From Aphanothece sp. CMT-3BRIN-NPC111 (GTDB lineage: Bacteria > Cyanobacteriota > Cyanobacteriia > Cyanobacteriales > JAHHGU01): DNA of 64,000 nucleotides. The DNA lies in NCBI GenBank assembly GCA_019359765.1, contig JAHHGU010000013.1, forward strand, positions 9,574 to 73,573, written 5' to 3'. The position numbers and the translations under genes are program-made. The notes beneath the pieces are model-generated. The model was not told where the DNA came from. It was given only the letters and a program-made list of their open reading frames with translations, and did no database searches. Positions 10,719 through 64,000 of this stretch are shown piece after piece (within the stretch, counting starts at the first letter, position 1; every line of letters starts with the position of its first letter).

Positions 10719-10999
10719 TTGTCTTTTAGCCTCTTATTGGCATTTATATACTTAGTGCTGCTGTAATGGTGGTAGATTTTATGCTCTAGACTTATGCGAG
10801 CTTTAAACTTCCCTATTACTATTATCGTGGAGTGCAGATTCTTTGACCTGCGTATTCTCACTGACTCTTAATTAAGACCTATGACTTAAAAACCGTATTT
10901 TTGTCAGGCTAATGAACTAAGGATAGACAGCAAAAATTAGTGTCAAGGTGGGGATTAACTGGTACCATCCTTGACTGAGGAGAATTAATTGCAAAACTA

Positions 11000-11023
11000 G
11001 TAGAGACGCGATCGCGTCTCTAC
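11000..11023 (-). terminator. 24-bp perfect palindrome GTAGAGACGCGATCGCGTCTCTAC (hairpin 3' of the 189-aa gene)
   Basis: Perfect palindrome centred on a HIP1 site, 12 nt downstream of the stop at 11035. There is no clear U-tract. Confidence 0.5.
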
Positions 11024-11034
11024 ATAAGCTCTAT

Positions 11035-11604
11035 CTAGCGAACTTTTACCTGGTAAGCAGCAGCTACCTTAGTTTGTGCAGCAATAGGTTCGCTAAAGCT
11101 CCAACGGACATGAGTATAAGCTTCGGCTGGTGCAGGTTTAGTTTCTACTTCGCCATTTGGCAGCTTGACTTGAACAGTGGGTTTTTCTACGAAAGTCTTA
11201 GCGTTATCAATACTATAAACAGTATTAACGCCGCTATTCTGAGTAGTCATAGCAGAATTCAAAACGTAAATTGTCTGCTTGGGAACGGGTTGGGTGATAG
11301 ATAGCTTTTTCACTGGGCGATCGCTACTATTTTCACCTAGTACCCGATAGCGAATCACATTCCCTGGTTGTACTACTACATTACCTTGCAAAGCTTGCCA
11401 GGTAACGTTTTCTTTACCTTGCTGATCTTTTTCTACCACCTGCTTATCAGCTGTTAAACGCAAATCAACTTTGGCGGGGTTGATGGTTTGAGCGATCGCT
11501 TCCCCAATGTCGTGTAGAGCCGTGAAGCCCGGTATAGTGCTAACGAAGGGAACAGCTGCAATAATAGCGATCGCGCCCAGACCAGCAATAGATGCACGTT
11601 TCAT
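11035..11604 (-). CDS. Small secreted beta-sandwich protein (candidate structural subunit)
   Basis: 189 aa. The leader is MKRASIAGLGAIAIIAAVPFV.... The remainder is beta-rich, and the gene is flanked by its own hairpins. Confidence 0.6.
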   Translation of the reverse strand: MKRASIAGLGAIAIIAAVPFVSTIPGFTALHDIGEAIAQTINPAKVDLRLTADKQVVEKDQQGKENVTWQALQGNVVVQPGNVIRYRVLGENSSDRPVKKLSITQPVPKQTIYVLNSAMTTQNSGVNTVYSIDNAKTFVEKPTVQVKLPNGEVETKPAPAEAYTHVRWSFSEPIAAQTKVAAAYQVKVR

Positions 11605-11669
11605 GTTAATCTCCTCTGCAAACTTCCAAATTTTTATTTGACAAAATGCTCGTACAGTTGGTTAACTTT

Positions 11670-11695
11670 GGGACATCTCGTTCTAGAGATGTCCC
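11670..11695 (-). terminator. Hairpin GGGACATCTC-N6-GAGATGTCCC 3' of the 837-aa gene
   Basis: Perfect 10-bp stem located 12 nt after the stop at 11707. Confidence 0.5.
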
Positions 11696-11706
11696 AAGTT
11701 AGCTAT

Positions 11707-46446: not shown

Positions 46447-46600
46447 CTTGACACTCCCCGGCGTAAACGCACGGGGATTCTTCTCTCTACGAGCCAACTT
46501 GCTCACGGCAGGTTTTCACCAACCAATGTAGGGGTCGATTCTCCAGAAGCGTTGCTCATGTTGACCATGAAAGTTCCGGTATGCCCTACCGTACTCAATC
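46447..46600 (-). ncRNA. Predicted omega-RNA (reRNA) of the tnpB element
   Basis: By analogy with characterised TnpB systems, the guide RNA would overlap the tnpB 3' end. It would terminate at the right-end hairpin GAATCCCCGTGCGTTTACGCCGGGGAGTGTCAAG (the + strand CTTGAC is at 46447-46452). The 5' boundary is a guess. Confidence 0.4.
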
Positions 46601-47678
46601 CCCGACTCAGGATGTTTCTCGCTGCGTTGTGATCTCTATCCAGCACACATCCACACTGGCAAGCGTGAGTGCGGGTGGAGAGGGACTTCTTAACCACAGT
46701 GCCGCATTGAGAGCATTCCTGACTTGTTCCGGCGGCGGTTACGGCAATGGTAATTTTTCCAAACACCTTGCCGAAGTATTCCAGCCACACTCGGAACTGA
46801 TACCAAGAAGCATCGTTAATACACTTGGCAAGACAGTGATTCTTCACCATGTTTTTCATCCTCAAGTCTTCGTAGACCACAACATCGTTAGATGTGATTA
46901 CGCACCTTGCCAACTTCACGGCATGGTCTTTACGCTGTCTACTTATTTTGAGGTGGCGTTTGCCCAGAATCACTCTGGCTTTCATCCTATTGTTAGAATT
47001 CTTAACTCGTCTAGATACAAGCCTTTGAGCCTGTCTTAATCGTCTCGCCCCCAAGCGTAGAAACCTAGGGTTATCAACTGTTTGAGCATTGCTATCGGTG
47101 TAGAAATCGTTAAGTCCTACATCTAACCCAATCGCATTGCCGGACGGTGCAATTTCAGAAGTACGAGCCACCTGAATACAGAACTGTACATAGTAACCAT
47201 CTGCTCTCTTCACCAGCCTGACTCGTTTGATTTGATGAGGCTGGTAGAAGTTTAAATCACGGGTTCCTTTGAGCTTGAGTCTGCCAATATTCTTCTTGTC
47301 AGTGAACGTGATTGAATGGCGATCGTCTGCCAGCTTCCATCCGCAGGTTTTATACTCGACTGAGCGGTTATCTTTCTGAAATTGTGGATAGCCCTTTAAT
47401 CCTGGGGTCTGTGATTTACAGTTCTCCAAGAATCTGCTAATAGCTGACCATGCCCGTTCAGCTGCGGCTTGACGGGCCATGCTGTTGAGTTCATTAACAA
47501 ACGGAAACTCTTTAGCCAATACCGCGCAATACTTGTTGAGATCGCTTTGAGACTTACCCAGTTGATCGAAAAAGAAGCGTAATGCTTTGTTGCGAATAAA
47601 CTGAACAGTTCTCAACGCCTCATCAATAGCGCTGAATTGGCTGGCTTTTCCGTAGGCTTTGAACTCCAGTACAATCAT
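46503..47678 (-). CDS. tnpB: TnpB RNA-guided endonuclease (IS200/IS605 family, IS1341-like); no tnpA
   Basis: RuvC motifs IGLDVGLND, VVVYEDL and DRDHNAARNI, plus the zinc ribbon CSQCGTVVKK...HACQCGC. The ORF is intact at 391 aa. Confidence 0.9.
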   Translation of the reverse strand: MIVLEFKAYGKASQFSAIDEALRTVQFIRNKALRFFFDQLGKSQSDLNKYCAVLAKEFPFVNELNSMARQAAAERAWSAISRFLENCKSQTPGLKGYPQFQKDNRSVEYKTCGWKLADDRHSITFTDKKNIGRLKLKGTRDLNFYQPHQIKRVRLVKRADGYYVQFCIQVARTSEIAPSGNAIGLDVGLNDFYTDSNAQTVDNPRFLRLGARRLRQAQRLVSRRVKNSNNRMKARVILGKRHLKISRQRKDHAVKLARCVITSNDVVVYEDLRMKNMVKNHCLAKCINDASWYQFRVWLEYFGKVFGKITIAVTAAGTSQECSQCGTVVKKSLSTRTHACQCGCVLDRDHNAARNILSRGLSTVGHTGTFMVNMSNASGESTPTLVGENLP

Positions 47679-52167: not shown

Positions 52168-53634
52168 CTAACTTCCTACAGCTGCTTCTAACTTTTGCAA
52201 ATTGGCAGAGGAGCGAGGCGGTAATAAGCATCCCTCTCGCAATTCCTGTACGCTACCTTTAACAGCCTGAATTATGTAGTCAAGATCTTCATCTGTATGG
52301 GCAGTGGATAGGAAACCGCCACCGTTTCGTAGGAGGATTCCCCTGTCAACGAGGTGATAGTATAACAAGTCCATCCCCGCTGAGCCTTCATTTTCCGAAG
52401 AGGCAGAATTTTCAGAAGCAGCAGGGCCAAAAAGTGAACCAAAATTCACCATGCGGATAGGCACTTCGTCTTCTTGAAAGTAAGTATTCAGTGTTTCAAT
52501 AAACTGCGATGTGCGTTGATTCAACTGCTGTTGAAGAGCAGAACCCTGAGTTTTTAGATGCTTCAGTACAGCCCGTGCAGCAGCCATTGCTAGCGGATGC
52601 TTGCAAAAGGTGCCTGCAAAAAAGGTTGTTTTTACCTGAGGATAGGATGCATCTCCATAGTTCCACATCCCGCCGTCGATTCTATCCATATAACTAGCTT
52701 TGCCAGCAACGATTCCAATCGGCATACCACCGCCAACAATTTTTCCGTATGTTGCTATGTCTGCTTCAATGCCAAACCATGCCTGCGCTCCTCCCGGATG
52801 AATGCGGAATCCGCTAACCATTTCATCGAAGATTAATGCTATCCCTGATTCTTTTGTTAATTGCCTTAGTTGCTGGAGAAAAGCTTTGGGCTGGAAGTCT
52901 ATTCTGCTGCTCTGCACGGGTTCAACTAAAACAGCTGCTAATTCATGTTCATGCGCTTTTATCGCCTCCAAGGACTGAGGATTGCCATAATCTAAAACCA
53001 AAATATCTGCAACAAGATTTGACGTTATGCCTGGGGCAAGTGGTACTGGATTTGGATAGTCGTCTACAGCCTTTGCTTTAACTAAAGTTCCATCAAAATG
53101 CCCATGATAAGAACCTGAAAATAGGGCAATTTTATTACGACCTGTTGCTGCTCGTGCCAGTCGTAACGCCGTCATCACGGCTTCTGTGCCTGTATTACTA
53201 AAGGCTACTCGCTCCATCCCCGTTAGTTCAGAAATCAACTGGGCAACCTCACCAGCTAATTCAGCTTGTGGGCCAATTTGTATACCTAGATCGAGTTGCT
53301 CTTCTAGGGCTTCTTTGATAAAAGATGGATTGTGACCAAAGAGATTTACGCCATAACCCATTGTGACATCGATATATTCATTACCATCGACATCCCATAT
53401 TTTGGAGCCGAGCGATCGCTTGGCCACAATTGGGTAGAACATTTCCTTGAGATGAAAATTGAAACCTACAAAGGTCTTGTTGTCAGCTATAACTGGGCGA
53501 TAGGTTTGTGCAAGTTGCTTTGATGTTTTTGTGCGCTTGGTATAGCGTTCGGTTAATCTCTGCAAATGCTGCTGCTGACGAATATTTATGCTACTTGTGG
53601 TTTCAGGCTGGGAAGGCATTTTTTTTGTACTCAT
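52168..53634 (-). CDS. Class-III (GSA-aminomutase-like) PLP aminotransferase, stand-alone, associated with the NRPS cluster
   Basis: FSNTGTEAVMTALRLAR, SGSYHG, and the PLP-lysine region ATYGKIVGGGMPIG. Confidence 0.8.
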   Translation of the reverse strand: MSTKKMPSQPETTSSINIRQQQHLQRLTERYTKRTKTSKQLAQTYRPVIADNKTFVGFNFHLKEMFYPIVAKRSLGSKIWDVDGNEYIDVTMGYGVNLFGHNPSFIKEALEEQLDLGIQIGPQAELAGEVAQLISELTGMERVAFSNTGTEAVMTALRLARAATGRNKIALFSGSYHGHFDGTLVKAKAVDDYPNPVPLAPGITSNLVADILVLDYGNPQSLEAIKAHEHELAAVLVEPVQSSRIDFQPKAFLQQLRQLTKESGIALIFDEMVSGFRIHPGGAQAWFGIEADIATYGKIVGGGMPIGIVAGKASYMDRIDGGMWNYGDASYPQVKTTFFAGTFCKHPLAMAAARAVLKHLKTQGSALQQQLNQRTSQFIETLNTYFQEDEVPIRMVNFGSLFGPAASENSASSENEGSAGMDLLYYHLVDRGILLRNGGGFLSTAHTDEDLDYIIQAVKGSVQELREGCLLPPRSSANLQKLEAAVGS

Positions 53635-53949
53635 GATGCTTTTTAGTGAAATGTTTGTTTTGAGGAAACGGCAAATGTAGCACTACTATTTGAGTTGTGA
53701 AAATTATTTGCTTGATTGAACCGCACTAGACGCAAAGGACGCTAACGGTACTTAGACAAAAACTAAGGTAAAAATGGCTTCAAACATATATCGAGAAAGA
53801 CTTTTAGCTCGAATTGGCATGAATCTAGTATTTACAAGGGTTTCAGACATTTTTTTGTAATCCACCTCTTTCCCTTGCTCAGAGAGAGTTTCAGCCCCTT
53901 TAGGGGCTAGAAAATGCCTAAGTCCCGCTAAGAAAGAAAGAGACAATTT

Positions 53950-56900
53950 CTACGAGGGGTATTTAAGTTCAATTTCCGATGTTGGGGTATGTAGGAAAGA
54001 GTTATCAATTAGGTATGAGAAGTAGGTACGAAGCAACTCAACATTTACTGGCGGACAGACTATAGAAGTACCTGCAAGTCCATTGAGTGTATTTTGGCAA
54101 TCGAACTTTAGCTCTGCTGAGTTAGACGTTGGCTCTTCGGATACCTTTTGAGAAACAACAGGCAAAAGGGGATACAATGCGTTTGAGGGCGATCGCTCTG
54201 CGACTTTGAGCAGCTCTGTTTGCCACTCGTTCTCTGAAATTTGCTGAAGTGGGTAGCCAAAAGTACAAATCCAACTAACAAACTCGTTCCACTGGGCGGG
54301 GTTAGGATTAACTAAGTGAAATGTTTTCCCCAGGGATTCTTGCTGCTTGGATAAATGAACAATTGCTTGGCTGACATAATCTACAGGCATTATGTTCACC
54401 ATCGCGTTACGCTTTGGGGCGCTTCCAAGTTGGATACAGCCTTTGATTGTTCTGAATGTATGATCATCTGGATTACAGGCACCAGTTTTGCTGTGTCCTG
54501 CTACACGTCCTGGCCTGTAAATAGATACAGGAAGTCCGCGATCGCCGGCAATATTTACTAACTTTTCCGCAACCCATTTACTCTGAATGTAGCCACCCTC
54601 AAGCACTTCATGAGCATCAGCACAATACTGTTCTCGTATTAGCGTAATGTCATTATTGCCTGCTGGGACGGCAACGCTGGTGCTAGAAATGAAATGCACA
54701 GGCTTGATTTTGAGTTGGCTTGCCAATCTTAAAATTTCCTGCGTTCCTAGCACGTTGGCAGCCTTTAGAACAGAATAGGGAAAAGTAAAATTAACAAACG
54801 CACCATTGTGATAAATGGCATCAATTATACTAGCCATCTCCCTAAACTGCTGCTCTGAAAGCCCCAACAGTGGCTTAGACAGTTCCCCGATCACAGGGAT
54901 AATTCGAGATTGAAAAGATTCATTCCAGATAGAATAAAGTTCTAAGCTGCTTTGAATCTTTTGTTTGCCTAACTCAGCATTTGAGGCGCGTACTAGGCAA
55001 TAGATATCTGCCTGACTTTGCTGGAGAAGTTCATAAAGTAAAAAAGATCCTAGAAAGCCTGTTGCTCCTGTCAATAAGATAGCCGTTGGTTCTGTGGTAT
55101 GCCTATAAAATAGGGATTTAGGACAAATTGTGGGATCTAAGACAGCTTCGGCGTTTAAATCGACAGCAGTATCTGAAGCAATCTTCTCAGAAGATTTTGT
55201 CTGATGAGCATTCTCAATACTTTCTGCCAAGGCAGCTATAGTAGGTGCTTCAAACAAACTGCGTAAAGGCAATTCTACTTGGAAAGCTTCACGCACTTTG
55301 GCAAGCAGCTGAGTCACTAACAGCGAGTGTCCCCCCAGATCGAAGAAGTTGTCGTGAATTCCTATCTTTTCAAGACCAAGAACTTTCATCCAGATTTCTG
55401 TTAGTGCTTCTTCAACTGGGGTGCGAGGCGCTACAAAAGTTTCCGCTAACTCAGGGCGCGTGTGGTCTGGTGTTGGCAGCGCTTGACGGTCTACTTTCCC
55501 GTTTGGCGTCAAAGGTAAGGTTTTCAAGACTATGAAAGCCGATGGCATCATGTACTCAGGCAACTTTTCCTTGAGGAAGTTCCTGATTTCATTGATGTTG
55601 GGTGTTTGACGAGGAACTATATAAGCTACCAAACGAGCATTTCCTGGTTCGTCCTCTCGAACTACAACGACAGCTTCCCGTATTAATTGATGTTGGCTAA
55701 GTAAGGCTTCAATTTCTCCTAATTCAATACGGTAGCCTCGAATTTTTACCTGATGGTCAATCCGTCCGATAAACTCGATGTTTCCATCGGGGAGGTAACG
55801 CGCCGTATCACCTGTTTTGTAAAGACGCGATCGCGGTTGGTCACAGAAAGGGTTGGGAATAAATTTTTCTTGAGTCAGTTCAGGACGATTCAAATAGCCC
55901 CGTGCTAAAGATGCGCCGCCGATATATAGTTCCCCTGGAACCCCGATAGGAACAGGTTGTAGATGTTTATCTAGTAAATAAATCTGTGTATTGGGAATTG
56001 GGCGACCTAATGGAACTGTCTCACCTACTCGATTTTGGACTTGATAGGTCAGAACACCAACAGTTGCTTCTGTAGGGCCATAGTGGTTAAAAATGAGGCA
56101 CTGCGGCGAGTGTTTCTGGATTTGCTCGATTAAATCCCAACTAGCCGTTTCGCCACCAAGGATTAATCGTTGCTGAGGTAAGATGTCGCTGGCGTAGGAG
56201 GATGCTAATAAAGCTTTCAGGTGAGAAGGAACAATTTTTAGGCAATCAATGGGATGGCGACGACAGTAATCTGCTAGTGCTTCAGGATCGGCAGCACGTT
56301 CTGAGGAGACTATATGAAGGCATCCACCTGTAGATAAGGAAGAAAAGATCGCTGTATTGCCTAAATCAGCAGCAAAGGTGGAGACTATCGCAAAGCTTGC
56401 ACCAAGGGGCAGGTCTAATCTTTCAAGGATACCGTCAAGGTAATTGAGAAGCTGTTGATGTTCAACGGCGACTCCTTTAGGTTTGCCTGTTGAGCCAGAA
56501 GTGTAGATTGTATAGGCTAAGTTTTTGGGTATTACGTTGCTAGATGGATTCTCGGTGTTTTGTTGAGCAATAACATCCCAATCTGTATCTAGATAAACTA
56601 TCTGCGTTGCCTGTTCGGGAAGTTCCTTGACTAGCTGGTTGTGGGTTAACAAAATTGGGGCTTGGGCATCTTGTAACCGAAAAGCTATACTTTGTGCTGG
56701 TAAGGCGGGGTCTATTGGTAGGTAAGCGCCACCTGCTTTGAGGATGCCGAGAATGCCAACGAGTATATCAAGAGATCGCTCTAGGCAAATTCCCACCAGC
56801 ACCTCTGGTTTTACTCCCAGTTTTTGCAAGTGATGGGCAAGTTGATTGGCACGTGCATTTAGTTCCGCATAGGTGAGTTGCCGATCTTCAAAGACAACGG

Positions 56901-58341
56901 CGATGTTATTGGGTGTGCGTTTTGCTTGCTCCTCGAATAGCTGATGGATACACTGGGTGGTGGGATAATCAGCCTGGGTGTTGTTGAATTCGGTGAGGAT
57001 CTGGTGGCGATCGCGATCGCTTAATATCTCTAATTGACTAATGCCAGCTTCAGGATGGGCGATCGCACTGTTTACCAACGTCTGCAAATGCCCTGCTAAA
57101 CGCTGAATATCCTCTGCACTGAATAAATTAGCGTCATAATGAAACGCGGCAATTAAAGAATCTTCCTGGCGAGTGCAGGAAAGTTTAACTTTGAATTTGT
57201 CAATACAGGCATACTGCTTGTAAATTGAAAATGATACTTCAGCAGCCGCATACTTTTCAGGTTGTTCAACAAAATCAAAACTAAATGGAAAACTAGATAA
57301 TTCCTCAATTTGTTCCCAACTAAAATACTCCTCCCATTGGGAGATGTCTTTTACCGTTTCATCAACCTGCGTCAATAGTTCGTTGAATTGGCTATCTGCT
57401 TGCAGATTACAAGTCAGCGGTAAATATTTAGAAAATAGTCCTATTGCTGCCTCTAGTTCCTCATATTTTCGACCATGAGAAGCTGTGGCAATAACAATAT
57501 CTGCCTGTCCAATAAATTTCCAAAGTAGAATTTGCCAACAGGTTAGCAAGAATACAGACGTATCTATATCATACTGCTGCGCTAAGGTTTCTATTTTAGC
57601 AACCGTATTCGGATCAATCTTCCATTCAAAAGATTTAACCTCCAAGAAACGGTTGGGTGTTACAGCTTTAGCTTCAAAAGGTAGTTTTAAACTTATCAAA
57701 TCTGACCGATATACTTGATTCCAGTAGTATTTGCCGACTTCTGCATCTTCATCCTCAAGTAATTGATTTTGCCACTCGGAAAATTGCACATATTGCACAA
57801 CTTCCTCACTTATTTCTTCACCTTTAAGGCAAGCATCATAAGACTGACCTATTTCCTGAACCAAATTATTGAGTGTCCAATTATCCGCGCAAAGTGCCGA
57901 CAGAGTTACGAGCAAAATATGCTTTTCGGCTGATAGCTTAAATAGGCATAAACGCAACAGCGATGTTTGCTCTAATTCCCCATTTAAGCTTTTTTCTTTT
58001 TCAAGGAAAGACTCGAATTGAGTTAATTGCTGTTCAGGCCTAAAAGTACTTAGATTAATTTCACGCCACAATAGTAGGCTGCTATCTGCTATCACCTGAA
58101 CAGGAGTTTTTACCCCCAGCGGGCGGCGAAAGTTTGTGCGGAGAATCTCATGGCGATCGCTAACTTGCTGTAAAGCAACTTTGAGAACCTCTTTTTTGAT
58201 ATTTCCTTCGATGAGAATAGCGCCTTGAACCTGGTAGGGGCATGGCGCTGCCGCGCCCCTACTTTCTTGGTGTAATAGCCAAAGACGTTTTTGTTGAGGA
58301 GAAAGGCGAAATCCCTGAATCACTTTATCTTGTAATTGCAT
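53950..58341 (-). CDS. NRPS: C-like (no HHxxxDG) - A - T - R (terminal thioester reductase)
   Basis: 1463 aa. The C-like domain begins FRLSPQQKRLW but carries LSALCADNW at the active-site position. A-domain motifs are LAYTIYTSGSTGKPKG, NHYGPTE, GELYIGG and PNGKVDR. The T domain has FFDLGGHSL. The R domain has LLTGATGFLGSFLL and YIQSK. It overlaps the upstream gene by 17 nt. Confidence 0.9.
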   Translation of the reverse strand: MQLQDKVIQGFRLSPQQKRLWLLHQESRGAAAPCPYQVQGAILIEGNIKKEVLKVALQQVSDRHEILRTNFRRPLGVKTPVQVIADSSLLLWREINLSTFRPEQQLTQFESFLEKEKSLNGELEQTSLLRLCLFKLSAEKHILLVTLSALCADNWTLNNLVQEIGQSYDACLKGEEISEEVVQYVQFSEWQNQLLEDEDAEVGKYYWNQVYRSDLISLKLPFEAKAVTPNRFLEVKSFEWKIDPNTVAKIETLAQQYDIDTSVFLLTCWQILLWKFIGQADIVIATASHGRKYEELEAAIGLFSKYLPLTCNLQADSQFNELLTQVDETVKDISQWEEYFSWEQIEELSSFPFSFDFVEQPEKYAAAEVSFSIYKQYACIDKFKVKLSCTRQEDSLIAAFHYDANLFSAEDIQRLAGHLQTLVNSAIAHPEAGISQLEILSDRDRHQILTEFNNTQADYPTTQCIHQLFEEQAKRTPNNIAVVFEDRQLTYAELNARANQLAHHLQKLGVKPEVLVGICLERSLDILVGILGILKAGGAYLPIDPALPAQSIAFRLQDAQAPILLTHNQLVKELPEQATQIVYLDTDWDVIAQQNTENPSSNVIPKNLAYTIYTSGSTGKPKGVAVEHQQLLNYLDGILERLDLPLGASFAIVSTFAADLGNTAIFSSLSTGGCLHIVSSERAADPEALADYCRRHPIDCLKIVPSHLKALLASSYASDILPQQRLILGGETASWDLIEQIQKHSPQCLIFNHYGPTEATVGVLTYQVQNRVGETVPLGRPIPNTQIYLLDKHLQPVPIGVPGELYIGGASLARGYLNRPELTQEKFIPNPFCDQPRSRLYKTGDTARYLPDGNIEFIGRIDHQVKIRGYRIELGEIEALLSQHQLIREAVVVVREDEPGNARLVAYIVPRQTPNINEIRNFLKEKLPEYMMPSAFIVLKTLPLTPNGKVDRQALPTPDHTRPELAETFVAPRTPVEEALTEIWMKVLGLEKIGIHDNFFDLGGHSLLVTQLLAKVREAFQVELPLRSLFEAPTIAALAESIENAHQTKSSEKIASDTAVDLNAEAVLDPTICPKSLFYRHTTEPTAILLTGATGFLGSFLLYELLQQSQADIYCLVRASNAELGKQKIQSSLELYSIWNESFQSRIIPVIGELSKPLLGLSEQQFREMASIIDAIYHNGAFVNFTFPYSVLKAANVLGTQEILRLASQLKIKPVHFISSTSVAVPAGNNDITLIREQYCADAHEVLEGGYIQSKWVAEKLVNIAGDRGLPVSIYRPGRVAGHSKTGACNPDDHTFRTIKGCIQLGSAPKRNAMVNIMPVDYVSQAIVHLSKQQESLGKTFHLVNPNPAQWNEFVSWICTFGYPLQQISENEWQTELLKVAERSPSNALYPLLPVVSQKVSEEPTSNSAELKFDCQNTLNGLAGTSIVCPPVNVELLRTYFSYLIDNSFLHTPTSEIELKYPS

Positions 58342-61300
58342 TGTTTGCCTCCAGAGATTTATGTTTAATGTCTTCGTTACTGATTATTTCTCCCATTGCC
58401 ACCACAATTTTGCGAGGGCCTACATAGGGATTGCGTCCGTGTGCAGTTAGCATATTGTCCAGCATGAGAATGTCCCCTTTCTGCCAAGGGAAACTAATTG
58501 TCGCCTCTCGATAAACAGCAGATATTTCCTCTACTATCGAGTCTTCAATGGGCGTGCCATCGCCGTAATAAACATGGCGTGGTAAATTTTCTTCCCCAAA
58601 TAATGACAACAATGATTCGCGCACATCTGAATCTAAACAGGATATATGATGTAACTGAATTTGATTGAAAAACACCATTTCGCCTGTTTGAGGATGTTTA
58701 GTCACTGCTGGACGAATCTCGCGGGTTCTTAAACTGTTGTTATCTTTCCACTCAAAAGCAATTGAATTCTGGCGACAGTAATCTTCTACAACTGTTTTGT
58801 CGCTTGTATGAAAGAATTCTGTCCAGTTAACATCTAGCCCTTCTGTGTAGTTCCGCACATACATTAATTGCTTTTGTGCGAATCTTTCTCTCAGCTTGGG
58901 GTCAAGCAGTTGATAAACTTTCCGACAGTCAACAATGGGAGTTTCTCCTCTTTGTTGTGCTGGTTGCACGCAGAAAAACCAAATTTTCATTGGCCATCGG
59001 TGCATATGCGAGCTTTCATTGTGAAATAATATGGCTTTGTCGGGTGGATAAGGGGTAGAACCGTAGACTTTACCACCAACTCCTTCGCGAGGTAAGTCAC
59101 CATATTCACCAAATAGTTCTGGACAGATAGCTTGGGCAAAATTCTCAAACTCAGACACGGAATTTGTATTAAAGCCCCGGAATAGGATTGCACCGTGCTT
59201 TAACAACTGTGTTTCTACAAATTCCCGATTATTCTTTGCCCAGTCTGCTATATCAATATCCTCTATAGCAGGCTCGACAACCAAAGGTAGTGTTTGTCCT
59301 GGCTCTAAATAGTCTGTTTTGATTAATTTCTTTTCTGGCAAGCTTACAGCTTTGGGCTTGACCATTTTGAACTTACTGAAGTTAACCTCTTTGCGTTTTT
59401 TCTGTTCTAGGAATTGTTTCTGCTTTTCAGCTGCGGTAAGCATTTCCAGAGCGTTTAGGCGTGAGTCAGGCTGTTTCACAATGCTACTTAGTAGTGTTTC
59501 AAAATTGTTGGACATTCGCGCGATCGCACTTTCACTAAATAAATCGGTGCTGTATTTCCAGTTGACAATTATTCCCTGTTCTGTTTCCGTCACGAAGAGA
59601 GCCAAATCAAACTTGGACATTTCATCTTTGACTTCTAAGGGGTGCAAAGTGAGATGGGAAAGTTTGATAGATACTGAGGGAGTATTTTGAAAAACGAACA
59701 ATACCTGAAATAGCGGCGTGTGATTTAAATTCCGTTCTGGTCGCAGTTCCTCTACCAGCTTTTCAAAAGGCAAGTCTTGGTGAGTATAAGCTTTTAAGGT
59801 GAGTTCTCGGACTCGCTGTAGCAACTCCCGAAAACTGGGATTCCCACGCATATCTGTGCGTAAGACGAGGAGGTTCACAAAGAAACCAATTAAAGCCTCT
59901 GTTTCGCTGCGAGTACGGTTAGCAATATCCGTGCCAACAACGATGTCATCCTGATTTGTATAGCGGTGTAGCAGCGTTTGAAATGCTGCCAGCAGGGTCA
60001 TATATAAGGTGACATTTTCCTGGTTGCTGAGTTCTTGGAGTCGCTTTGATAAGTTTAAAGACAGTTCGCAGGTTTGGCTAGCACCTTGGAAGGTTTGGAT
60101 ATGCGATCGCGGTTTATCGGTGGGTAACTCCAGGGCCGGGGGATTTCCTCCCAGTAGTTGTTTCCAGTAGGTTAGTTTGGCTTCTAGCACTTCTCCCTGT
60201 AACCATTGGCGTTGCCAAACTGCAAAGTCTGCGTACTGGATAGAGAGTTCTGGGAGTGGAGAAGGTTTCCCGGCAGATAAGGCTTCGTACAATGTTGCTA
60301 ATTCCTGAATCAGCACTCCCATAGACCAGCCATCAGAAACGATGTGGTGCATTGTTAAAAGCAGTACATGATCGGTTGAATTTAGCCGTAATAAAGTTAC
60401 CCGTAATAATGGGGGGTAAGCTAAATCAAAAGGTTTTAAAGCTTCTGCTTTTGCTAACCGTTGCACCTCTGTTTCTTGTTCAGAATCAAGTTCTATAACT
60501 GGTAATTGGAGATTACAGGTTGGGGAAATAACTTGAATGGGTCGTCCTTCAACTGTGGCAAAGCTAGTCCGTAAGATTTCGTGACGGCGCACAACTTCAT
60601 TGAAGCTTTGTTCTAAGGCGGCGACGTTGAGGGAACCTGTAAGGCGAACGGCAGCGGGAACGTTGTAGAGGGGGCTTTCTGGTGCTAGCTGGCTGAGAAA
60701 CCACAGGCGCTGTTGGGCAAAGGAAAGGGGTAATTCTTGATTCCGGGAAACACGCTGGATGGGCGGTGCTTCTGTAAATCCCCCCTTAAAAAGGGGGGTA
60801 GGAGAGGCGATGGTGCTTCGCACCGTCCTTCGGACGAACGCACTTTTAACACTTTCAGCTAGTCCGCCTACAGTCGGCGACTCAAACAGACAGCGCAGCG
60901 GTAGTTCAATATCAAAGGTGTCCCGCACTCGCGACATTACCTGAGTTGCTATTAGAGAATGTCCCCCTACATCAAAAAAGTTATCGTTGACACCGACTTG
61001 TTCAATACCCAGAACTTCAGAAAAAATGCTAGCTAGTTGTTCCTCAATTAAATTGCGTGCTGCTAGATAGTTGTCTTCTAGATCGAGTCGAACTAAATCA
61101 GGAGAAGGAAGTGCTTTTCGATCTACCTTGCCGTTAGGTGTCAGGGGTAGGGCATCCAAGACCACAAAGGCTGATGGCACCATATAATCTGGCAGCTTTT
61201 CTTGCAGGTAGTCGCGTAGCTGGGGGGCTAAATCGCGGGCAACTTTCCCCTGCAAGGGATTATTGGCATAAGCATTCCAGGGTTTGATAACGTTTCTTGA

Positions 61301-64000
61301 CGGGAAGATAGGAGATCCCCCCAACCGCCCTTGAAAAGGGGGGCTAAGAGTTGTGCGCCGTCGAAATACTACGTCATAAATACCATCTGCGCTGGAGCCT
61401 AACCAACTGATATCGATGGAATAGGGGAATTTGTCGCCTAATGCCCAGAAGTCTTCTGGCTCGATTCCAGCTTCTTGAGTGATTTCTGCTAGGGTTGAGC
61501 GTAGTTCGCCTACTGTTTCTGGTGCTTCATCATTGGCAAGTAGTTCTAATGCCTTGACTTCTGTTGCTAAACGTGGATTAGGGATATGTCGTAGTCCGAG
61601 GATTTCTGGCTGGGTTGATTCTAGTAATTCGCTTACAGAGGCGAGTGTTAATTTCTGCTGCTGCCAGTCCAACAAGTTGAGATCCCCCCAACCCCCCTTA
61701 AAAAGGGGGGCTATGCGTGAGTCTTGATTTGATGTTTCTACTTCTGTTCCTACATGGAGGATTGCATCGTAGCGGAACTTGCTGAGTTCATTGTTGTAGT
61801 GTCCCCGCTTAGGCTGAATCTGGACGTGAGTAATCTGCGGTAAGTGTTGCTGAAGGGCAGTGAAGAAAGCGGGGTCGATTACCAGTTCCTCTTCTTGGGC
61901 GATGCGTTTTTGTATGCGCTGTCGCAGTTCGGTTGTGGGTAGAGTGTCGGGGGCTTGATACAACTGCACTGATGTATGGAAGGCTTCTAGTAGGGGGAGG
62001 CTACGCACATCTCCCAGGAAGATAAACCCTCCAGGTGCTACGGCACAGGCAGCACCTTCTAAGACGCGCAACAGATAGTCGATGTTAGGAAAATATTGAA
62101 CAACGGAGTTGATAATTACTGCATCGAAGGCTGCTGTCTCGACTCCCTCAAAGTTGTCTGCCATTCTGTGAAACAGGCTAACTTGGGGCAAAGCCCGTTC
62201 TGGCATTTTTAACTGCTGTTGAATGTAGTTTAAAGCTGGTTGTGAGAAGTCACAGCCAACATATTGGGTGCAGTGGGGAGCAATTCTAAACAGCAGCAAA
62301 CCACTACCACAACCAATTTCTAAGACACGTTTTGGTTTTAAGGACAAAACTCGCTCAACGGTAGATTCTACCCACTGGCGCATCTCTTCTGCTGGAAGGG
62401 GCTGGTCTGTATAGCTGCTATTCCAGCCAGTGATATTCAGTGTTGGGTCTTGAGTTGGAGTAGTTTGGCTGTAGGTTTCATCATAGAGCGATCGCCACTG
62501 GGATATTTGCTCTGCTGGCAACTCTTTCTGGTTCTCCTCCAAGTCGTTAGATGAGGAGTTGGCAACGATGTAAGCGATTAGTCGTTTATCTCCAGGTGTA
62601 TCTTCTCTAACTAAAGCGATCGCATCTTGCAAAGCCGAATGTTGTTTTAGGGTGGCTTCAATTTCTTCTAACTCAATGCGGAAGCCGCGCAGTTTTACCT
62701 GTTGGTCGATGCGTCCCAGAAACTCAATGTTGCCATCTGGTAAGTAACGAGCTAAGTCACCTGTTTTATACAGGCGCGATTTTGTTTCTTGGCTAAATGG
62801 ATTGGTAATAAATCGATCGGCGGTAAGATCGGGACGGTTAAGGTATCCCCTCGCCAAACTGATACCCCCGATGTACATTTCCCCAGGAACACCGATGGGA
62901 ACTGGCTGCAACTGGGTATCCAGAATATAAATTTGTGTATTAGCGATTGGACGTCCAATGGGCAGTTTGCGATCGCCCTCAGTACATTCAGCGACAGTGG
63001 CACAAACGGTTGTTTCTGTGGGGCCATAAGCGTTGAAGAACCGCCGTCCAGGTGCCCATTGTGCTACAAGGTCAGGAGAACAAGCTTCTCCGGCGACAAT
63101 AATTGTCCGCAATGCAGGCAGATCCTCAGAAGGCAGAACCGCCAGCACTGAGGGCGGCAGGGTAACAATCGTAATCGCTTCCTCGCGCAATAGCTGCATT
63201 AAAGCCGAACTATCCAGTAAGGTGTCTCTGCTTGCCAGTACGAGGGTTGCCCCCAATCCTAGAGCCATGACAACTTCCCAAACAGAGGCATCGAAGTTTA
63301 ATGAAGCAAACTGGAGAATGCGGCTATCTGGCTGCACGTCGAAGAGTTGCTGCTGCGCTTGGCTTAGGTTGTATAAGCCTCGGTGCGCCACTAATACACC
63401 TTTAGGTCTGCCTGTAGATCCTGATGTATAGATAACGTATGCCAGGTTAGAAGAGTTTTGAGTTTTGAGTTTTGAGTTTTGAGTTTTGAGTTTTAAGGTT
63501 TGTATAACTTTCCAATCGGTATCTAGACATACAACTTTGGCGTTGTGTGAGGGAAGTGTATTTAAAAATTGTTGCTGGGTTAGCAATACCTGCACTTGAG
63601 CGTCTTCTAGCATGAAAGCTAGGCGCTTCTTTGGATATGCAGGGTCTAAGGGGACGTAAGCACCACCTGCTTTGAGAACGCCAAGTAGGGCTACTACCAT
63701 GTCTAGCGATCGCTCAAGGCAAATACCGACCAGTACCTCTGGTTTTACGCCTAGCTTTTGCAGGTAATGCGCTAGTTGATTGGCTCGTTGATTGAGTTCT
63801 CGGTAAGTTAACTGCTGGTTTTGAAAGACGAGTGCAACAGCATCCGGTGTCTGTTCTGCCTGGGCTTCAAACAGTTGATGAAAACAAACATCCTTGAATA
63901 ATTCTGCCTGCTGAGTATTATTCCACTCCAACAGTAGCTGATGCTGTTCAGGCTGAGTCAGCAATGGCAAATCTAAGAGGCTGCGATCGGGATTGGCAAC
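58325..64000 (-). CDS. NRPS (5' end beyond window): ...C(end)-A(with embedded methyltransferase)-T-C-TauD/TfdA-like dioxygenase
   Basis: The reading frame stays open through to nt 64000 (VANPDRSLLDLPLLTQPEQ is a C-A linker). A-domain motifs: LAYVIYTSGSTGRPKG, NAYGPTE. The MT motif VLEIGCGSGLLL lies between A8 and A9. The T domain has FFDVGGHSL, and the C domain has MHHIVSDGWS. The C-terminal ~320 aa carry FHNESSH...LTAHGR (a 2-His-1-carboxylate pattern). Confidence 0.9.
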   Translation of the reverse strand, partial: VANPDRSLLDLPLLTQPEQHQLLLEWNNTQQAELFKDVCFHQLFEAQAEQTPDAVALVFQNQQLTYRELNQRANQLAHYLQKLGVKPEVLVGICLERSLDMVVALLGVLKAGGAYVPLDPAYPKKRLAFMLEDAQVQVLLTQQQFLNTLPSHNAKVVCLDTDWKVIQTLKLKTQNSKLKTQNSSNLAYVIYTSGSTGRPKGVLVAHRGLYNLSQAQQQLFDVQPDSRILQFASLNFDASVWEVVMALGLGATLVLASRDTLLDSSALMQLLREEAITIVTLPPSVLAVLPSEDLPALRTIIVAGEACSPDLVAQWAPGRRFFNAYGPTETTVCATVAECTEGDRKLPIGRPIANTQIYILDTQLQPVPIGVPGEMYIGGISLARGYLNRPDLTADRFITNPFSQETKSRLYKTGDLARYLPDGNIEFLGRIDQQVKLRGFRIELEEIEATLKQHSALQDAIALVREDTPGDKRLIAYIVANSSSNDLEENQKELPAEQISQWRSLYDETYSQTTPTQDPTLNITGWNSSYTDQPLPAEEMRQWVESTVERVLSLKPKRVLEIGCGSGLLLFRIAPHCTQYVGCDFSQPALNYIQQQLKMPERALPQVSLFHRMADNFEGVETAAFDAVIINSVVQYFPNIDYLLRVLEGAACAVAPGGFIFLGDVRSLPLLEAFHTSVQLYQAPDTLPTTELRQRIQKRIAQEEELVIDPAFFTALQQHLPQITHVQIQPKRGHYNNELSKFRYDAILHVGTEVETSNQDSRIAPLFKGGWGDLNLLDWQQQKLTLASVSELLESTQPEILGLRHIPNPRLATEVKALELLANDEAPETVGELRSTLAEITQEAGIEPEDFWALGDKFPYSIDISWLGSSADGIYDVVFRRRTTLSPPFQGRLGGSPIFPSRNVIKPWNAYANNPLQGKVARDLAPQLRDYLQEKLPDYMVPSAFVVLDALPLTPNGKVDRKALPSPDLVRLDLEDNYLAARNLIEEQLASIFSEVLGIEQVGVNDNFFDVGGHSLIATQVMSRVRDTFDIELPLRCLFESPTVGGLAESVKSAFVRRTVRSTIASPTPLFKGGFTEAPPIQRVSRNQELPLSFAQQRLWFLSQLAPESPLYNVPAAVRLTGSLNVAALEQSFNEVVRRHEILRTSFATVEGRPIQVISPTCNLQLPVIELDSEQETEVQRLAKAEALKPFDLAYPPLLRVTLLRLNSTDHVLLLTMHHIVSDGWSMGVLIQELATLYEALSAGKPSPLPELSIQYADFAVWQRQWLQGEVLEAKLTYWKQLLGGNPPALELPTDKPRSHIQTFQGASQTCELSLNLSKRLQELSNQENVTLYMTLLAAFQTLLHRYTNQDDIVVGTDIANRTRSETEALIGFFVNLLVLRTDMRGNPSFRELLQRVRELTLKAYTHQDLPFEKLVEELRPERNLNHTPLFQVLFVFQNTPSVSIKLSHLTLHPLEVKDEMSKFDLALFVTETEQGIIVNWKYSTDLFSESAIARMSNNFETLLSSIVKQPDSRLNALEMLTAAEKQKQFLEQKKRKEVNFSKFKMVKPKAVSLPEKKLIKTDYLEPGQTLPLVVEPAIEDIDIADWAKNNREFVETQLLKHGAILFRGFNTNSVSEFENFAQAICPELFGEYGDLPREGVGGKVYGSTPYPPDKAILFHNESSHMHRWPMKIWFFCVQPAQQRGETPIVDCRKVYQLLDPKLRERFAQKQLMYVRNYTEGLDVNWTEFFHTSDKTVVEDYCRQNSIAFEWKDNNSLRTREIRPAVTKHPQTGEMVFFNQIQLHHISCLDSDVRESLLSLFGEENLPRHVYYGDGTPIEDSIVEEISAVYREATISFPWQKGDILMLDNMLTAHGRNPYVGPRKIVVAMGEIISNEDIKHKSLEANNAITR
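60780..60798. repeat. In-frame palindromic mini-repeat CCCCCCTTAAAAAGGGGGG (copy a)
   Basis: Encodes PLFKGGF in the T-C linker. Short GC hairpins flank it, up to about nt 60845. Confidence 0.8.
61314..61345. repeat. In-frame mini-repeat GATCCCCCCAACCGCCCTTGAAAAGGGGGGCT (copy b)
   Basis: Encodes SPPFQGRLGGS. Confidence 0.8.
61681..61715. repeat. In-frame mini-repeat GATCCCCCCAACCCCCCTTAAAAAGGGGGGCT (copy c)
   Basis: Encodes APLFKGGWGDL. It is nearly identical to copy b. Confidence 0.8.
63453..63494. repeat. 6 x GAGTTTT heptamer tract inside the NRPS A domain
   Basis: 42 bp, equal to 14 codons, translated as KLKTQNSKLKTQNS just upstream of the A3 core motif. Confidence 0.9.

What the first reader, a model, noticed from the sequence alone, without database searches (positions are those of the whole stretch)
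52168..64000. NRPS cluster with beta-hydroxy-Asp siderophore-like logic and reductive release (truncated at the window edge)
In minus-strand order the domains are ...C-A(MT)-T-C-TauD | C-like(no HH)-A-T-R | class-III aminotransferase. The first two genes overlap by 17 nt. My hand-aligned Stachelhaus codes are DAWTIAAVCK for A1 (GrsA Phe is DAWTIAAICK) and DLTKIGHVGK for A2 (the Asp code is DLTKVGHIGK). An Asp-loading module preceded by a non-canonical C-like domain and a dioxygenase fused to the upstream NRPS C-terminus has been described for beta-hydroxyaspartate siderophores. Predicted partial product: ...-N-Me-Phe-(beta-OH)Asp, released as an aldehyde or alcohol and possibly transaminated. 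I recall beta-OH-Asp lipopeptide siderophores (cyanochelins) from cyanobacteria, but I cannot say whether this cluster matches them.
Basis: partly seen in the sequence, partly recalled or inferred. Interest (0 to 1): 0.7.

Follow-up and report, generated by a model that had tools for sequence, protein, structure and literature searches.

The report
Cyanochelin-like siderophore synthetase tail with transaminase
This is the last part of a cyanobacterial gene cluster that very probably builds an iron-binding peptide of the known cyanochelin type; it is not surprising, except that an extra enzyme probably turns the end of the molecule into an amine, a variant with no described product.

Summary
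On the minus strand lie [C]-A(MT)-T-C-TauD (58325->64000, cut by the window), C-like(no HH)-A-T-R (53950-58341, 17-nt overlap) and a class-III aminotransferase (52168-53634). The specificity codes DAWTIAAVCK and DLTKIGHVGK are reproduced.

The source is a MAG, Aphanothece sp. CMT-3BRIN-NPC111.

The two NRPS genes correspond to CcsJK/CcsL of the cyanochelin C cluster: 58% identity over the whole terminal protein and 76% for the TauD domain. There, a beta-OH-Asp thioester is reduced to the C-terminal residue DHABA. The Phe code is identical to that of the Phe module of cyanochelin B.

Two things differ from the characterised cyanochelins. The penultimate residue is predicted to be N-Me-Phe rather than Gly. 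A stand-alone aminotransferase follows the reductase gene. It is about 55% identical to the MycA AMT domain, and a published analysis puts MxcL in that subfamily. The same R-then-aminotransferase order recurs in at least 16 other cyanobacterial loci but not in the cyanochelin C cluster.

Most likely the aldehyde is transaminated to a terminal amine, as in myxochelin B and as proposed for anachelin.

The window holds no transporter and no cluster start. Siderophore function is inferred.

The parts
58325..64000 (-). Gene 1, 3' 1891 codons of a 2355-aa NRPS: C-A(N-MT)-T-C-TauD. The 5' 464 codons (one C domain) lie beyond the window.
   Evidence: The full-length protein P0121 is 100% identical.
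62840..63871 (-). A1 adenylation core, code DAWTIAAVCK (Phe)
   Evidence: Pfam AMP-binding, residues 44-387. Code, identical to the Phe A domain of CcsFGH of cyanochelin B (P0159).
61958..62380 (-). SAM-methyltransferase core of the domain inserted between A8 and A9 of A1. Predicted to be a backbone N-methyltransferase.
   Evidence: Methyltransf_12/25/11, residues 541-681. Best PDB match is 5WMM, an interrupted A domain, 197 bits. The motif NELSKFRYDAI is read.
60854..61042 (-). T1 carrier domain
   Evidence: PP-binding, residues 987-1049.
59417..60739 (-). Canonical condensation domain (HHIVSDG at 60329-60349). Presumably joins N-Me-Phe to the Asp-derived residue carried by gene 2.
   Evidence: Condensation, 417 bits. 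Motif located.
58397..59263 (-). C-terminal TauD-family Fe(II)/2-oxoglutarate dioxygenase domain. Predicted Asp beta-hydroxylase.
   Evidence: TauD, E 1e-47. 76% identical to the CcsJK TauD domain in L016 and 68% to that of CcsFGH. FHNESSH and TAHGRNP are conserved.
53950..58341 (-). Gene 2, 1463-aa terminal NRPS: I(C-like)-A(Asp)-T-R. Overlaps gene 1 by 17 nt.
   Evidence: P0001 is 100% identical. 58% identical to the Myxacorys chilensis protein at the ccsL position (L016).
56995..58308 (-). Interface-type C-like domain with SALCADN in place of HHxxxDG
   Evidence: Condensation, 234 bits. Motif at 57880-57900. Five relatives fetched carry the same C-A-D core in place of HHxxxDG.
55495..56937 (-). 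A2 adenylation domain, code DLTKIGHVGK (Asp)
   Evidence: The same code occurs in L002, L004, L005, P0020, P0023 and P0074. The protein at the ccsL position in L016 has DLTKVGHVGK.
55222..55410 (-). T2 carrier domain (GGHSL)
53992..55080 (-). Terminal thioester reductase domain (GATGFLG, YIQSK)
   Evidence: NAD_binding_4. TIGR01746, 371 bits against a cut-off of 213. Motifs located.
52168..53634 (-). Stand-alone class-III aminotransferase of the MycA-AMT type. Last gene of the cluster.
   Evidence: Aminotran_3. PDB 6KFM (MycA AMT) 506 bits, against 211 bits for glutamate-1-semialdehyde aminomutase. Orthologues of 67-77% identity lie directly after the R gene in L001-L006, L029 and L047.

Best explanation
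This is the 3' end of a non-ribosomal peptide (possibly hybrid) gene cluster of the cyanochelin type in a cyanobacterium, Aphanothece sp. CMT-3BRIN-NPC111.

Proposed steps:
1. Module n-1 activates Phe, N-methylates it on the carrier, and adds it to the growing chain.
2. The A domain of gene 2 loads Asp onto T2.
3. The TauD domain fused to the end of gene 1 hydroxylates the carrier-bound Asp at C-beta. The catalytically dead, C-like interface domain at the start of gene 2 holds the two proteins together.
4. The canonical C domain just before TauD joins N-Me-Phe to beta-OH-Asp.
5. The terminal R domain reduces the thioester with NAD(P)H.
6. The aldehyde is then most likely transaminated by the adjacent AMT-type aminotransferase. 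This gives a C-terminal 3-acylamino-4-amino-2-hydroxybutanoate. A minor or alternative route is further reduction to the alcohol DHABA, as in cyanochelins A and C.

Either way the alpha-hydroxy-carboxylate that binds Fe(III) is kept.

What is shown: domain order, motifs, specificity codes, homology to CcsJK/CcsL, and conserved R-then-aminotransferase synteny. What is inferred: hydroxylation, N- rather than O-methylation, the transamination step, and siderophore function.

My confidence is about 0.85 that this is a cyanochelin-type beta-OH-Asp tail, and about 0.55 that the transamination step occurs.
For: - Domain architecture.
- Codes DAWTIAAVCK and DLTKIGHVGK. The first is identical to the code of the Phe module of cyanochelin B (P0159; PMC12628792). 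The second is one conservative change from the code of the protein at the ccsL position (DLTKVGHVGK, L016).
- Gene 2 is 58% identical over its full length to the Myxacorys chilensis ATA2-1-KO14 protein at the ccsL position. The TauD domain is 76% identical to the CcsJK TauD domain. In that cluster the same pair yields DHABA by reduction of beta-OH-Asp.
- The I-domain motif SALCADN replaces HHxxxDG, and relatives share the same C-A-D core.
- The aminotransferase scores 506 bits, about 55% identity, against the MycA AMT domain, and 211 bits against GSAM. PMC3870968 places MxcL and the zeamine aminotransferase in the same subfamily.
- The A-T-R part of gene 2 scores 715 bits against the NCBIfam model NRPS_MxcG.
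- The aminotransferase lies directly after the R gene in 8 genome loci (L001-L006, L029, L047). Searching from the aminotransferase side, 8 of 11 stand-alone homologues of 60% identity or more have an R domain upstream.
- The cyanochelin C locus has R without the aminotransferase and makes the alcohol.
- Relatives of this type carry a TonB-dependent receptor, FecCD, or a penicillin-amidase-family acylase gene nearby.
- The putative anachelin cluster uses Red + AmT + MT at its C-terminus (PMC4247773).
Against: - No transporter, receptor, Fur-type regulator or cluster start lies in the 52 kb of window downstream, which is housekeeping. The upstream part could not be retrieved.
- Only one chelating residue is visible, and a siderophore needs more.
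- The characterised homologue of the aminotransferase (MycA AMT) acts on a carrier-bound beta-keto thioester, not on a free aldehyde.
- Three stand-alone homologues lie without an R domain (L083, L084, L113).
- A 315-nt spacer separates gene 2 from the aminotransferase here, whereas several relatives have overlapping or closely spaced genes.
- I did not compare the aminotransferase with MxcL directly.
- Whether R stops at the aldehyde cannot be read from sequence.
Confidence: 0.6

Rival explanations
1. The assembly line is the same, but the product ends in the alcohol DHABA exactly as in cyanochelins A and C (four-electron reduction). The aminotransferase works elsewhere in the pathway. It could supply a precursor, as proposed for CcsR and beta-Ala in cyanochelin C. 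Or it could aminate in trans a carrier-bound beta-keto intermediate made by an upstream PKS module, as MycA AMT does.
For: The R domain of the protein at the ccsL position, 57% identical to this one, gives the alcohol. MycA AMT, the closest characterised homologue, acts on ACP-bound beta-ketoacyl chains. Embedded AMT domains of 46-64% identity sit inside PKS/NRPS proteins in many loci. The cyanochelin C cluster has a transaminase assigned to precursor supply. The upstream part of this cluster is unknown.
Against: The aminotransferase is positionally tied to the R gene: directly downstream in 16 loci from several cyanobacterial orders, sometimes with overlapping ORFs. It is absent from the R-containing cyanochelin C locus. 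It was not found within 10 kb of most TauD/I/Asp modules that lack R. Stand-alone copies next to R are 67-77% identical to it, embedded ones only 46-64%.
Confidence: 0.25
2. The cluster makes a beta-hydroxy-Asp-containing (lipo)peptide whose role is not iron acquisition, for example a toxin, antibiotic or surfactant. The resemblance to siderophore machinery then reflects shared tailoring chemistry only.
For: No iron-uptake genes lie in the window. An N-methylated aromatic residue is more typical of bioactive cyanopeptides: homologues with the same A(MT) module include a Microcystis NRPS, P0183. Reitz and Medema report that beta-hydroxylase profiles also capture non-metallophore clusters such as turnercyclamycin and the syringomycin family (PMC12971057).
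Against: The TauD domain is 68-76% identical to the hydroxylase domains of two proven siderophore clusters. Cyanochelin B itself contains Phe. Related R-aminotransferase loci have an AMIN-domain TonB receptor, FecCD and a penicillin-amidase-family acylase next to them. AMIN-domain receptors import cyanochelins (preprint 10.64898/2026.07.30.741596).
Confidence: 0.12
3. The released aldehyde is not transaminated as a final step. It is captured within the molecule (imine or hemiaminal ring), or the amine cyclises onto the side-chain carboxylate to give a lactam. The product would then be a cyclic peptide rather than a linear chelator.
For: Reductive release followed by imine macrocyclisation is known in cyanobacteria, for nostocyclopeptide NcpB (PMC12184294). 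A 4-amino group lies gamma to the C1 carboxylate; that is chemical reasoning, not tested here.
Against: This does not explain the conserved aminotransferase unless the lactam route applies, and a lactam would destroy the chelating alpha-hydroxy-acid. In several relatives a small SAM methyltransferase sits next to the aminotransferase, which fits a free amine that is then methylated, as proposed for anachelin.
Confidence: 0.05

Closest known systems
Cyanochelin C (and A) end-game: CcsJK (Gly module + C + TauD) and CcsL (Asp module + reductive domain), Myxacorys chilensis ATA2-1-KO14
   Same: The gene pair and domain order are the same...T-C-TauD followed by C-like-A(Asp)-T-R. The terminal protein is 58% identical, the TauD domain 76%, the I domain 51% and the R domain 57%. 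The Asp code differs by one conservative V/I change. Both sit at the 3' end of the cluster. The known product residue is DHABA, which is reduced beta-OH-Asp.
   Different: The penultimate module here is Phe with an inserted methyltransferase, instead of Gly. A stand-alone aminotransferase follows the R gene here and is absent from the cyanochelin C locus. The remaining modules are unknown.
Cyanochelin B: CcsFGH/CcsI, Leptolyngbya sp. NIES-3755
   Same: It has an NRPS with a C-terminal fused Asp beta-hydroxylase, 68% identical to this TauD domain. Its Phe A domain has the identical code DAWTIAAVCK. The product contains Phe and beta-OH-Asp.
   Different: There the hydroxylated Asp is internal, and the chain ends with Gly reduced to ethanolamine. 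There is no N-methylation, and no aminotransferase is mentioned in the main text of the paper.
Myxochelin MxcG (C-A-T-R) + MxcL (aminotransferase)
   Same: A terminal thioester reductase is followed by a class-III aminotransferase that converts the aldehyde to the amine of a siderophore, myxochelin B (PMC3870968). The A-T-R part of gene 2 scores 715 bits on the NCBIfam model NRPS_MxcG. According to PMC3870968, MxcL belongs to the MycA-AMT subfamily, to which the window enzyme clearly belongs.
   Different: The chemistry differs (catecholate on Lys) and so does the phylum. The score is far below the equivalog cut-off of 2300, so gene 2 is not MxcG. I did not compare the aminotransferase with MxcL directly.
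[quoted passage not shown]
   Same: It is a cyanobacterial siderophore cluster whose C-terminal residue is proposed to be processed by a reductase, an aminotransferase and a methyltransferase (PMC4247773). Several relatives of the window cluster also carry a small methyltransferase next to the aminotransferase.
   Different: The residue processed there is a Tyr derivative, not beta-OH-Asp. The assignment is bioinformatic. I made no sequence comparison here.
MycA aminotransferase (AMT) domain of mycosubtilin synthase (PDB 6KFM)
   Same: About 55% identity over residues 19-473, including the N-terminal extension that GSAM lacks. The lysine in the YGKIVGGG motif is conserved in the same alignment.
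   Different: MycA AMT is embedded in a PKS/NRPS and aminates an ACP-bound beta-keto thioester. The window enzyme is free-standing and follows a reductase.

Membership tests
NRPS beta-hydroxyaspartate system with fused hydroxylase and interface domain (IBH_Asp / CyanoBH_Asp type, Reitz et al. 2019; Reitz and Medema 2026) | A TauD-family Fe(II)/2-oxoglutarate dioxygenase domain fused to the C-terminus of the NRPS that precedes the Asp module | tested here: met
   PF02668, 164 bits, at residues 1580-1868 of gene 1, directly after a C domain. 68-76% identical to the fused hydroxylases of CcsFGH and CcsJK.
NRPS beta-hydroxyaspartate system with fused hydroxylase and interface domain (IBH_Asp / CyanoBH_Asp type, Reitz et al. 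2019; Reitz and Medema 2026) | The next NRPS begins with a condensation-like 'interface' domain that lacks the catalytic HHxxxDG motif | tested here: met
   Condensation hit of 234 bits. SALCADN sits at the motif position. No HHxxxD motif occurs in this protein or in its relatives. The definition of the family comes from my memory of Reitz 2019, which is not held in the library. [quoted passage not shown]
NRPS beta-hydroxyaspartate system with fused hydroxylase and interface domain (IBH_Asp / CyanoBH_Asp type, Reitz et al. 2019; Reitz and Medema 2026) | The A domain after the interface domain is Asp-specific | tested here: met
   Code DLTKIGHVGK. The A domains of the two Asp modules in the cyanochelin C locus read DLTKVGHVGK and DLTKIGHIGK in the same script.
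NRPS beta-hydroxyaspartate system with fused hydroxylase and interface domain (IBH_Asp / CyanoBH_Asp type, Reitz et al. 2019; Reitz and Medema 2026) | Score above threshold on the antiSMASH pHMMs IBH_Asp, CyanoBH_Asp1 or CyanoBH_Asp2, and not on SBH_Asp | not testable with these tools
   These profiles are not in any library offered here. The rule is described in PMC12971057.
NRPS beta-hydroxyaspartate system with fused hydroxylase and interface domain (IBH_Asp / CyanoBH_Asp type, Reitz et al. 2019; Reitz and Medema 2026) | Siderophore transport genes (TonB-dependent receptor, FecCD/periplasmic binding protein) next to the cluster | tested here: inconclusive
   None lies in the 52 kb downstream of the cluster. 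The upstream side is outside the window and could not be fetched. Such genes are present near related loci L003, L047 and L085/L113.
Cyanochelins (A, B, C) | Terminal gene pair of the CcsJK/CcsL type giving a reductively released beta-OH-Asp | tested here: met
   58% full-length identity to the Myxacorys chilensis protein at the ccsL position, with the same domain order. The product of that pair is described.
Cyanochelins (A, B, C) | An N-terminal acyl chain (FAAL), a heterocycle, and two beta-OH-Asp-type chelating residues | not testable with these tools
   These modules would lie beyond base 64000. Only the N-terminal C domain of gene 1 could be recovered (P0121).
Cyanochelins (A, B, C) | The same peptide as a described cyanochelin (C-terminus beta-OH-Asp-Gly-DHABA in A and C; ...beta-OH-Asp-ethanolamine in B) | tested here: not met
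   The penultimate A domain is Phe-coded with an MT insert, not Gly. Among the best 120 homologues of gene 1, none other combines MT and TauD domains. The locus has an extra aminotransferase.
Reductive release coupled to transamination (MxcG/MxcL type) | The terminal module ends T-R, with an intact NAD(P)H-binding motif and YxxxK | tested here: met
   TIGR01746, 371 bits (cut-off 213). GATGFLG and YIQSK are present.
Reductive release coupled to transamination (MxcG/MxcL type) | An adjacent class-III aminotransferase of the MycA-AMT/MxcL subfamily, conserved next to the R gene | tested here: met
   506 bits to MycA AMT. Placement of MxcL in that subfamily is taken from PMC3870968, not tested directly. 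Synteny holds in 16 loci.
Reductive release coupled to transamination (MxcG/MxcL type) | The aldehyde intermediate is converted to a primary amine | not testable with these tools
   This needs product analysis or an enzyme assay.
Interrupted adenylation domain with backbone N-methyltransferase | A SAM-MT domain of about 420 aa inserted between core motifs A8 and A9, homologous to characterised N-MT inserts | tested here: met
   The insert lies between GRIDQQVKLRGFRIELEEIE and LPDYMVP...NGKVDR. Pfam gives MT hits at residues 541-681. The best PDB hit is 5WMM, 197 bits; that 5WMM is an N-methylating interrupted A domain is from my memory. The motif NELSKFRYDAI matches the N-MT core motif M2, also from my memory of Marahiel et al. 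1997. O-methylation is not formally excluded.

The most novel reading that the evidence does not exclude
The window cluster and at least ten related loci (Waterburya, Tychonema, Microcoleus, Cylindrospermum and several metagenome contigs) define an uncharacterised branch of cyanochelin-like siderophores. In this branch the terminal beta-OH-Asp thioester is reduced and then transaminated. The result would be a C-terminal 3,4-diamino-2-hydroxybutanoate-type chelating residue that has not been described in any natural product I could find. In some relatives it may be N-methylated further by the small methyltransferase next to the aminotransferase.
Probability: 0.45. Interest if true: 0.5.

Novelty: new variant of a known kind. 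Interest (0 to 1): 0.4.

Why it matters
Few cyanobacterial siderophores are known: 24 structures according to the cyanochelin C preprint. They affect iron cycling in soils, crusts and waters, and those that chelate with beta-OH-Asp can be cleaved by UV light.

This locus, together with the roughly 16 related loci found here, points to a branch of the cyanochelin family with a different C-terminal chemistry, amine instead of alcohol, and here also with an N-methylated aromatic residue next to the chelating unit.

If confirmed, this would add a new chelating building block. It would also give a sequence marker, the stand-alone AMT-type aminotransferase directly after a T-R module, for predicting amine termini when mining genomes.

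It does not change any concept. Every step has a precedent.

Tried and rejected
**Getting the rest of the cluster**
- Exact-DNA searches with the last 58 bases of the window found nothing in genome contigs or in metagenome contigs.
- Exact-protein look-ups failed for gene 2, P0001 and P0121.
- The aminotransferase was found only on a 7.4-kb Logan contig that breaks at the NRPS (L081).
- So the modules upstream of gene 1, and any transporter on that side, remain unknown.

**Papers not held**
- Reitz 2019 (PMC6778253) and Galica 2021 (PMC8357277) are not in the library.
- The definition of the interface domain and the cyanochelin A gene map therefore rest on secondary sources and on my memory.

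**Ideas considered and set aside**
- 'The aminotransferase is a HemL paralogue.' Rejected: it scores 293 bits against a cut-off of 398 on the GSAM model, and 506 bits on MycA AMT.
- 'Gene 2 is MxcG.' Rejected: 715 bits against a cut-off of 2300.
- A regulatory element in the 315-nt spacer before the aminotransferase. The promoter and terminator scans were not above chance.
- Iron-uptake genes elsewhere in the window. None found.
- A literature search for a described beta-OH-Asp + reductase + aminotransferase cluster returned nothing relevant.

**Not done**
- I did not use structure prediction. The domain identities were already unambiguous.
Full report
**1. What is in the sequence**

Three minus-strand ORFs fill 52168-64000.
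- The first runs to the window edge without a stop.
- Pfam gives for gene 1: AMP-binding (44-387), methyltransferase (541-681), AMP-binding_C (922-958), PP-binding (987-1049), Condensation (1088-1528, 417 bits), TauD (1580-1868).
- For gene 2: Condensation (12-449, only 234 bits), AMP-binding, PP-binding, NAD_binding_4.
- For gene 3: Aminotran_3.
- Genes 1 and 2 overlap by 17 nt (58325-58341).

The canonical C domain has HHIVSDG. The N-terminal domain of gene 2 has SALCADN at that position.

The codes are DAWTIAAVCK and DLTKIGHVGK.

**2. Source and the missing 5' end**

Gene 2 is 100% identical to a protein of the MAG Aphanothece sp. CMT-3BRIN-NPC111, on a contig of 117 kb (P0001).

Gene 1 is 100% identical to a 2355-aa protein of the same contig (P0121). 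Its sequence shows that 464 residues, one C domain behind a docking-type N-terminus, lie beyond the window. Gene 1 is therefore C-A(MT)-T-C-TauD, and at least one more synthetase must precede it.

I could not obtain the DNA beyond base 64000.

**3. Boundary**

Below 52168 the window holds housekeeping genes:
- a CDP-alcohol phosphatidyltransferase, an epimerase, SurE, a 2-hydroxyacid dehydrogenase and an IS605-type TnpB;
- further on, purA, L25, ftsQ/ftsZ, thiD, an amidase and dnaE.

The aminotransferase is therefore the last gene of the cluster. There is no iron-uptake gene on this side.

**4. Relation to characterised clusters**

A scan of one genome per species returned 80 loci. L016 is the Myxacorys chilensis ATA2-1-KO14 contig that carries the cyanochelin C cluster (preprint 10.64898/2026.07.24.740629).

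Comparison with L016:
- The terminal protein there is 58% identical to gene 2 over residues 1-1454.
- tblastn gives TauD 76%, I domain 51%, R 57%.
- Its Asp code is DLTKVGHVGK.

[quoted passage not shown] Cyanochelins A and C share the C-terminus beta-OH-Asp-Gly-DHABA.

Comparison with cyanochelin B:
- The fused hydroxylase of CcsFGH (P0159) is 68% identical to the window TauD domain, with FHNESSH and AHGRNPYVG conserved.
- The first A domain of P0159, which corresponds to Phe2 of cyanochelin B (PMC12628792), has exactly the window's A1 code.

The Phe and Asp assignments thus rest on comparison with modules whose products are known. They do not rest only on the 1999 code table.

**5. The methyltransferase**

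It is inserted between A8 and A9 of A1. Its best solved relative is the interrupted A domain 5WMM, at 197 bits. It carries NELSKFRYDAI, which matches the N-MT core motif as I remember it. I read it as a backbone N-methyltransferase; O-methylation is not formally excluded.

Among the best 120 homologues of gene 1, only the source protein itself combines MT and TauD domains. In related loci the module before C-TauD is Gly-coded (L002, L005, L016), or carries other codes, for example DASTIAAVCK in L006. An N-methylated aromatic residue next to the terminal chelating residue therefore looks unusual within this family.

**6. The aminotransferase**

Against solved structures it scores as follows:
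- MycA AMT domain: 506 bits, about 55% identity, residues 19-473 including the N-terminal extension.
- Glutamate-1-semialdehyde aminomutases: about 200 bits.

It also falls below the GSAM cut-offs in NCBIfam. A published analysis places MxcL (myxochelin B) and the zeamine aminotransferase in the same subfamily as MycA AMT, and describes MxcL as transaminating the aldehyde of the late intermediate (PMC3870968).

Synteny:
- An orthologue of 67-77% identity lies immediately after the R gene in L001 (Waterburya), L002 (Tychonema), L003 and L047 (Calothrix), L004 (Cylindrospermum NIES-4074), L005/L006 (Microcoleus) and L029 (Coleofasciculus). In several of these the ORFs overlap.
- The cyanochelin C locus has the R domain but no such gene. 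This agrees with the paper's gene map and with its alcohol product.
- Searching metagenome contigs from the aminotransferase side, 8 of 11 stand-alone homologues of 60% identity or more with enough flank have an R domain directly upstream.
- Embedded AMT domains are more distant, at 46-64% identity.
- The exceptions are L083/L084 (PKS-TE, TauD, JmjC and MT context) and L113. L113 is a second copy beside an AMIN-domain TonB receptor and FecCD, 15 kb from the R-aminotransferase pair L085 on the same contig.

In an NJ tree of R domains the window groups with L004, inside a cyanobacterial clade in which most members have the aminotransferase. The cyanochelin C R domain (L016) branches near this group.

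**7. Siderophore context in relatives**

Near R-aminotransferase loci I found:
- a TonB-dependent receptor (L085, L047);
- FecCD (L003);
- a penicillin-amidase-family acylase (L003, L082, L086), the type of enzyme reported as CcsQ for cyanochelin C.

AMIN-domain TonB receptors import cyanochelins.

A small SAM methyltransferase often sits next to the aminotransferase (L003, L029, L085, L086, L093, L112). This recalls the Red + AmT + MT set proposed for the C-terminal Dmaq unit of anachelin (PMC4247773). It fits an amine that is then methylated.

**8. Mechanism proposed**

Shown: domains, motifs, codes, homology and synteny.

Inferred:
- (a) Asp on T2 is beta-hydroxylated by the TauD domain of gene 1, with the inactive I domain serving as the docking surface.
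- (b) The C domain upstream of TauD couples N-Me-Phe to it.
- (c) R releases an aldehyde.
- (d) The aminotransferase converts it to the primary amine. The alcohol is the alternative fate, as with MxcG/MxcL.

The alpha-hydroxy-carboxylate stays available for Fe(III), as in DHABA.

**9. Rivals**

- The aminotransferase works elsewhere in the pathway (precursor supply or trans-AMT) and the product ends in DHABA.
- The product is not a siderophore.
- The aldehyde or amine cyclises.

Evidence for and against each is given in the structured fields. The main weakness of my preferred reading is that nothing upstream of gene 1 is visible and that no enzyme of the R-associated clade has been assayed.

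**10. Verdict**

This is a correctly read, real BGC tail of a known family. It is not identical to a characterised cluster (58-76% identity, different penultimate residue). It carries a conserved but chemically uncharacterised tail variant. Interest is moderate.

Noticed in passing
window 63453-63502: A heptanucleotide tandem array (GAGTTTT x 7.1 on the + strand, AAAACTC on the coding strand) lies in frame inside the A1 adenylation domain. It encodes LKTQNSKLKTQNS just before the A3 motif. It looks like a cyanobacterial STRR-type heptamer repeat tolerated in a variable loop of an NRPS.
   Followed up: partly
window 61314-61343, 61681-61710 and (partial) 60761-60802: Two to three copies of a roughly 30-nt G/C-rich palindromic element (CCCCCCTTTTTAAGGGGGGTTGGGGGGATC) are inserted in frame in gene 1. 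They encode PLFKGGWGD-like peptides in the MT domain and in the T-C linker. None is expected by chance. Similar peptides (KGGWGD) occur in homologues P0074 and P0020. This suggests a small dispersed mobile repeat that lands in NRPS linkers.
   Followed up: partly
window 46503-47678 (-): An IS605-family OrfB/TnpB gene (Cas12f-like TNB domain) lies 4.5 kb downstream of the cluster end. It is also present on the independent Logan contig L081.
   Followed up: no
window 2525-14220 (-): A run of large minus-strand ORFs (635, 1285, 811, 189 and 837 aa) has only beta-helix/NosD, Big_6, DUF11 and DUF7925 hits, or none at all. Probably a cell-surface protein operon.
   Followed up: no
window 40288-42360 (-), 37513-38847 (+): ORFs of 690 aa and 444 aa have no Pfam match at E <= 1e-5.
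   Followed up: no
L007 12472-13194, L008 12415-13161, L010 9032-9763, L060 11627-12358; also L003 17316-18071, L085 11599-12357, L086 11472-12224, L029 21008-21760: A small SAM methyltransferase (about 250 aa) recurs in two positions in related clusters. In some it sits between the C-TauD gene and the I-A(Asp)-T gene. In others it sits next to the stand-alone aminotransferase. It may methylate the beta-OH-Asp-derived residue or the new amine. The window has no copy.
   Followed up: partly
L113 9911-11314 with L113 4961-7702 and 13637-14668: A second stand-alone aminotransferase paralogue (74% identical to the window enzyme) lies between an AMIN-domain TonB-dependent receptor and a FecCD permease, flanked by KR and MT fragments. 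It is 15 kb from an R-aminotransferase NRPS tail (L085) on the same 731-kb metagenome contig.
   Followed up: partly
L084 1326-13189 (same arrangement in L083): A 71%-identical stand-alone aminotransferase occurs in a different context: PKS (KS-AT-KR-ACP-TE), TauD, a JmjC/cupin hydroxylase, a methyltransferase, the aminotransferase, and an Orn/Lys/Arg decarboxylase. So this enzyme clade is not restricted to R-domain partners.
   Followed up: no
L004 5691-9791, L003 6518-11404, L047 3930-8876, L007 8279-12388: In several relatives the protein that carries (or precedes) the TauD domain has two C-type His motifs but no A-domain signature. The architecture therefore differs from the window's C-A(MT)-T-C-TauD.
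   Followed up: no
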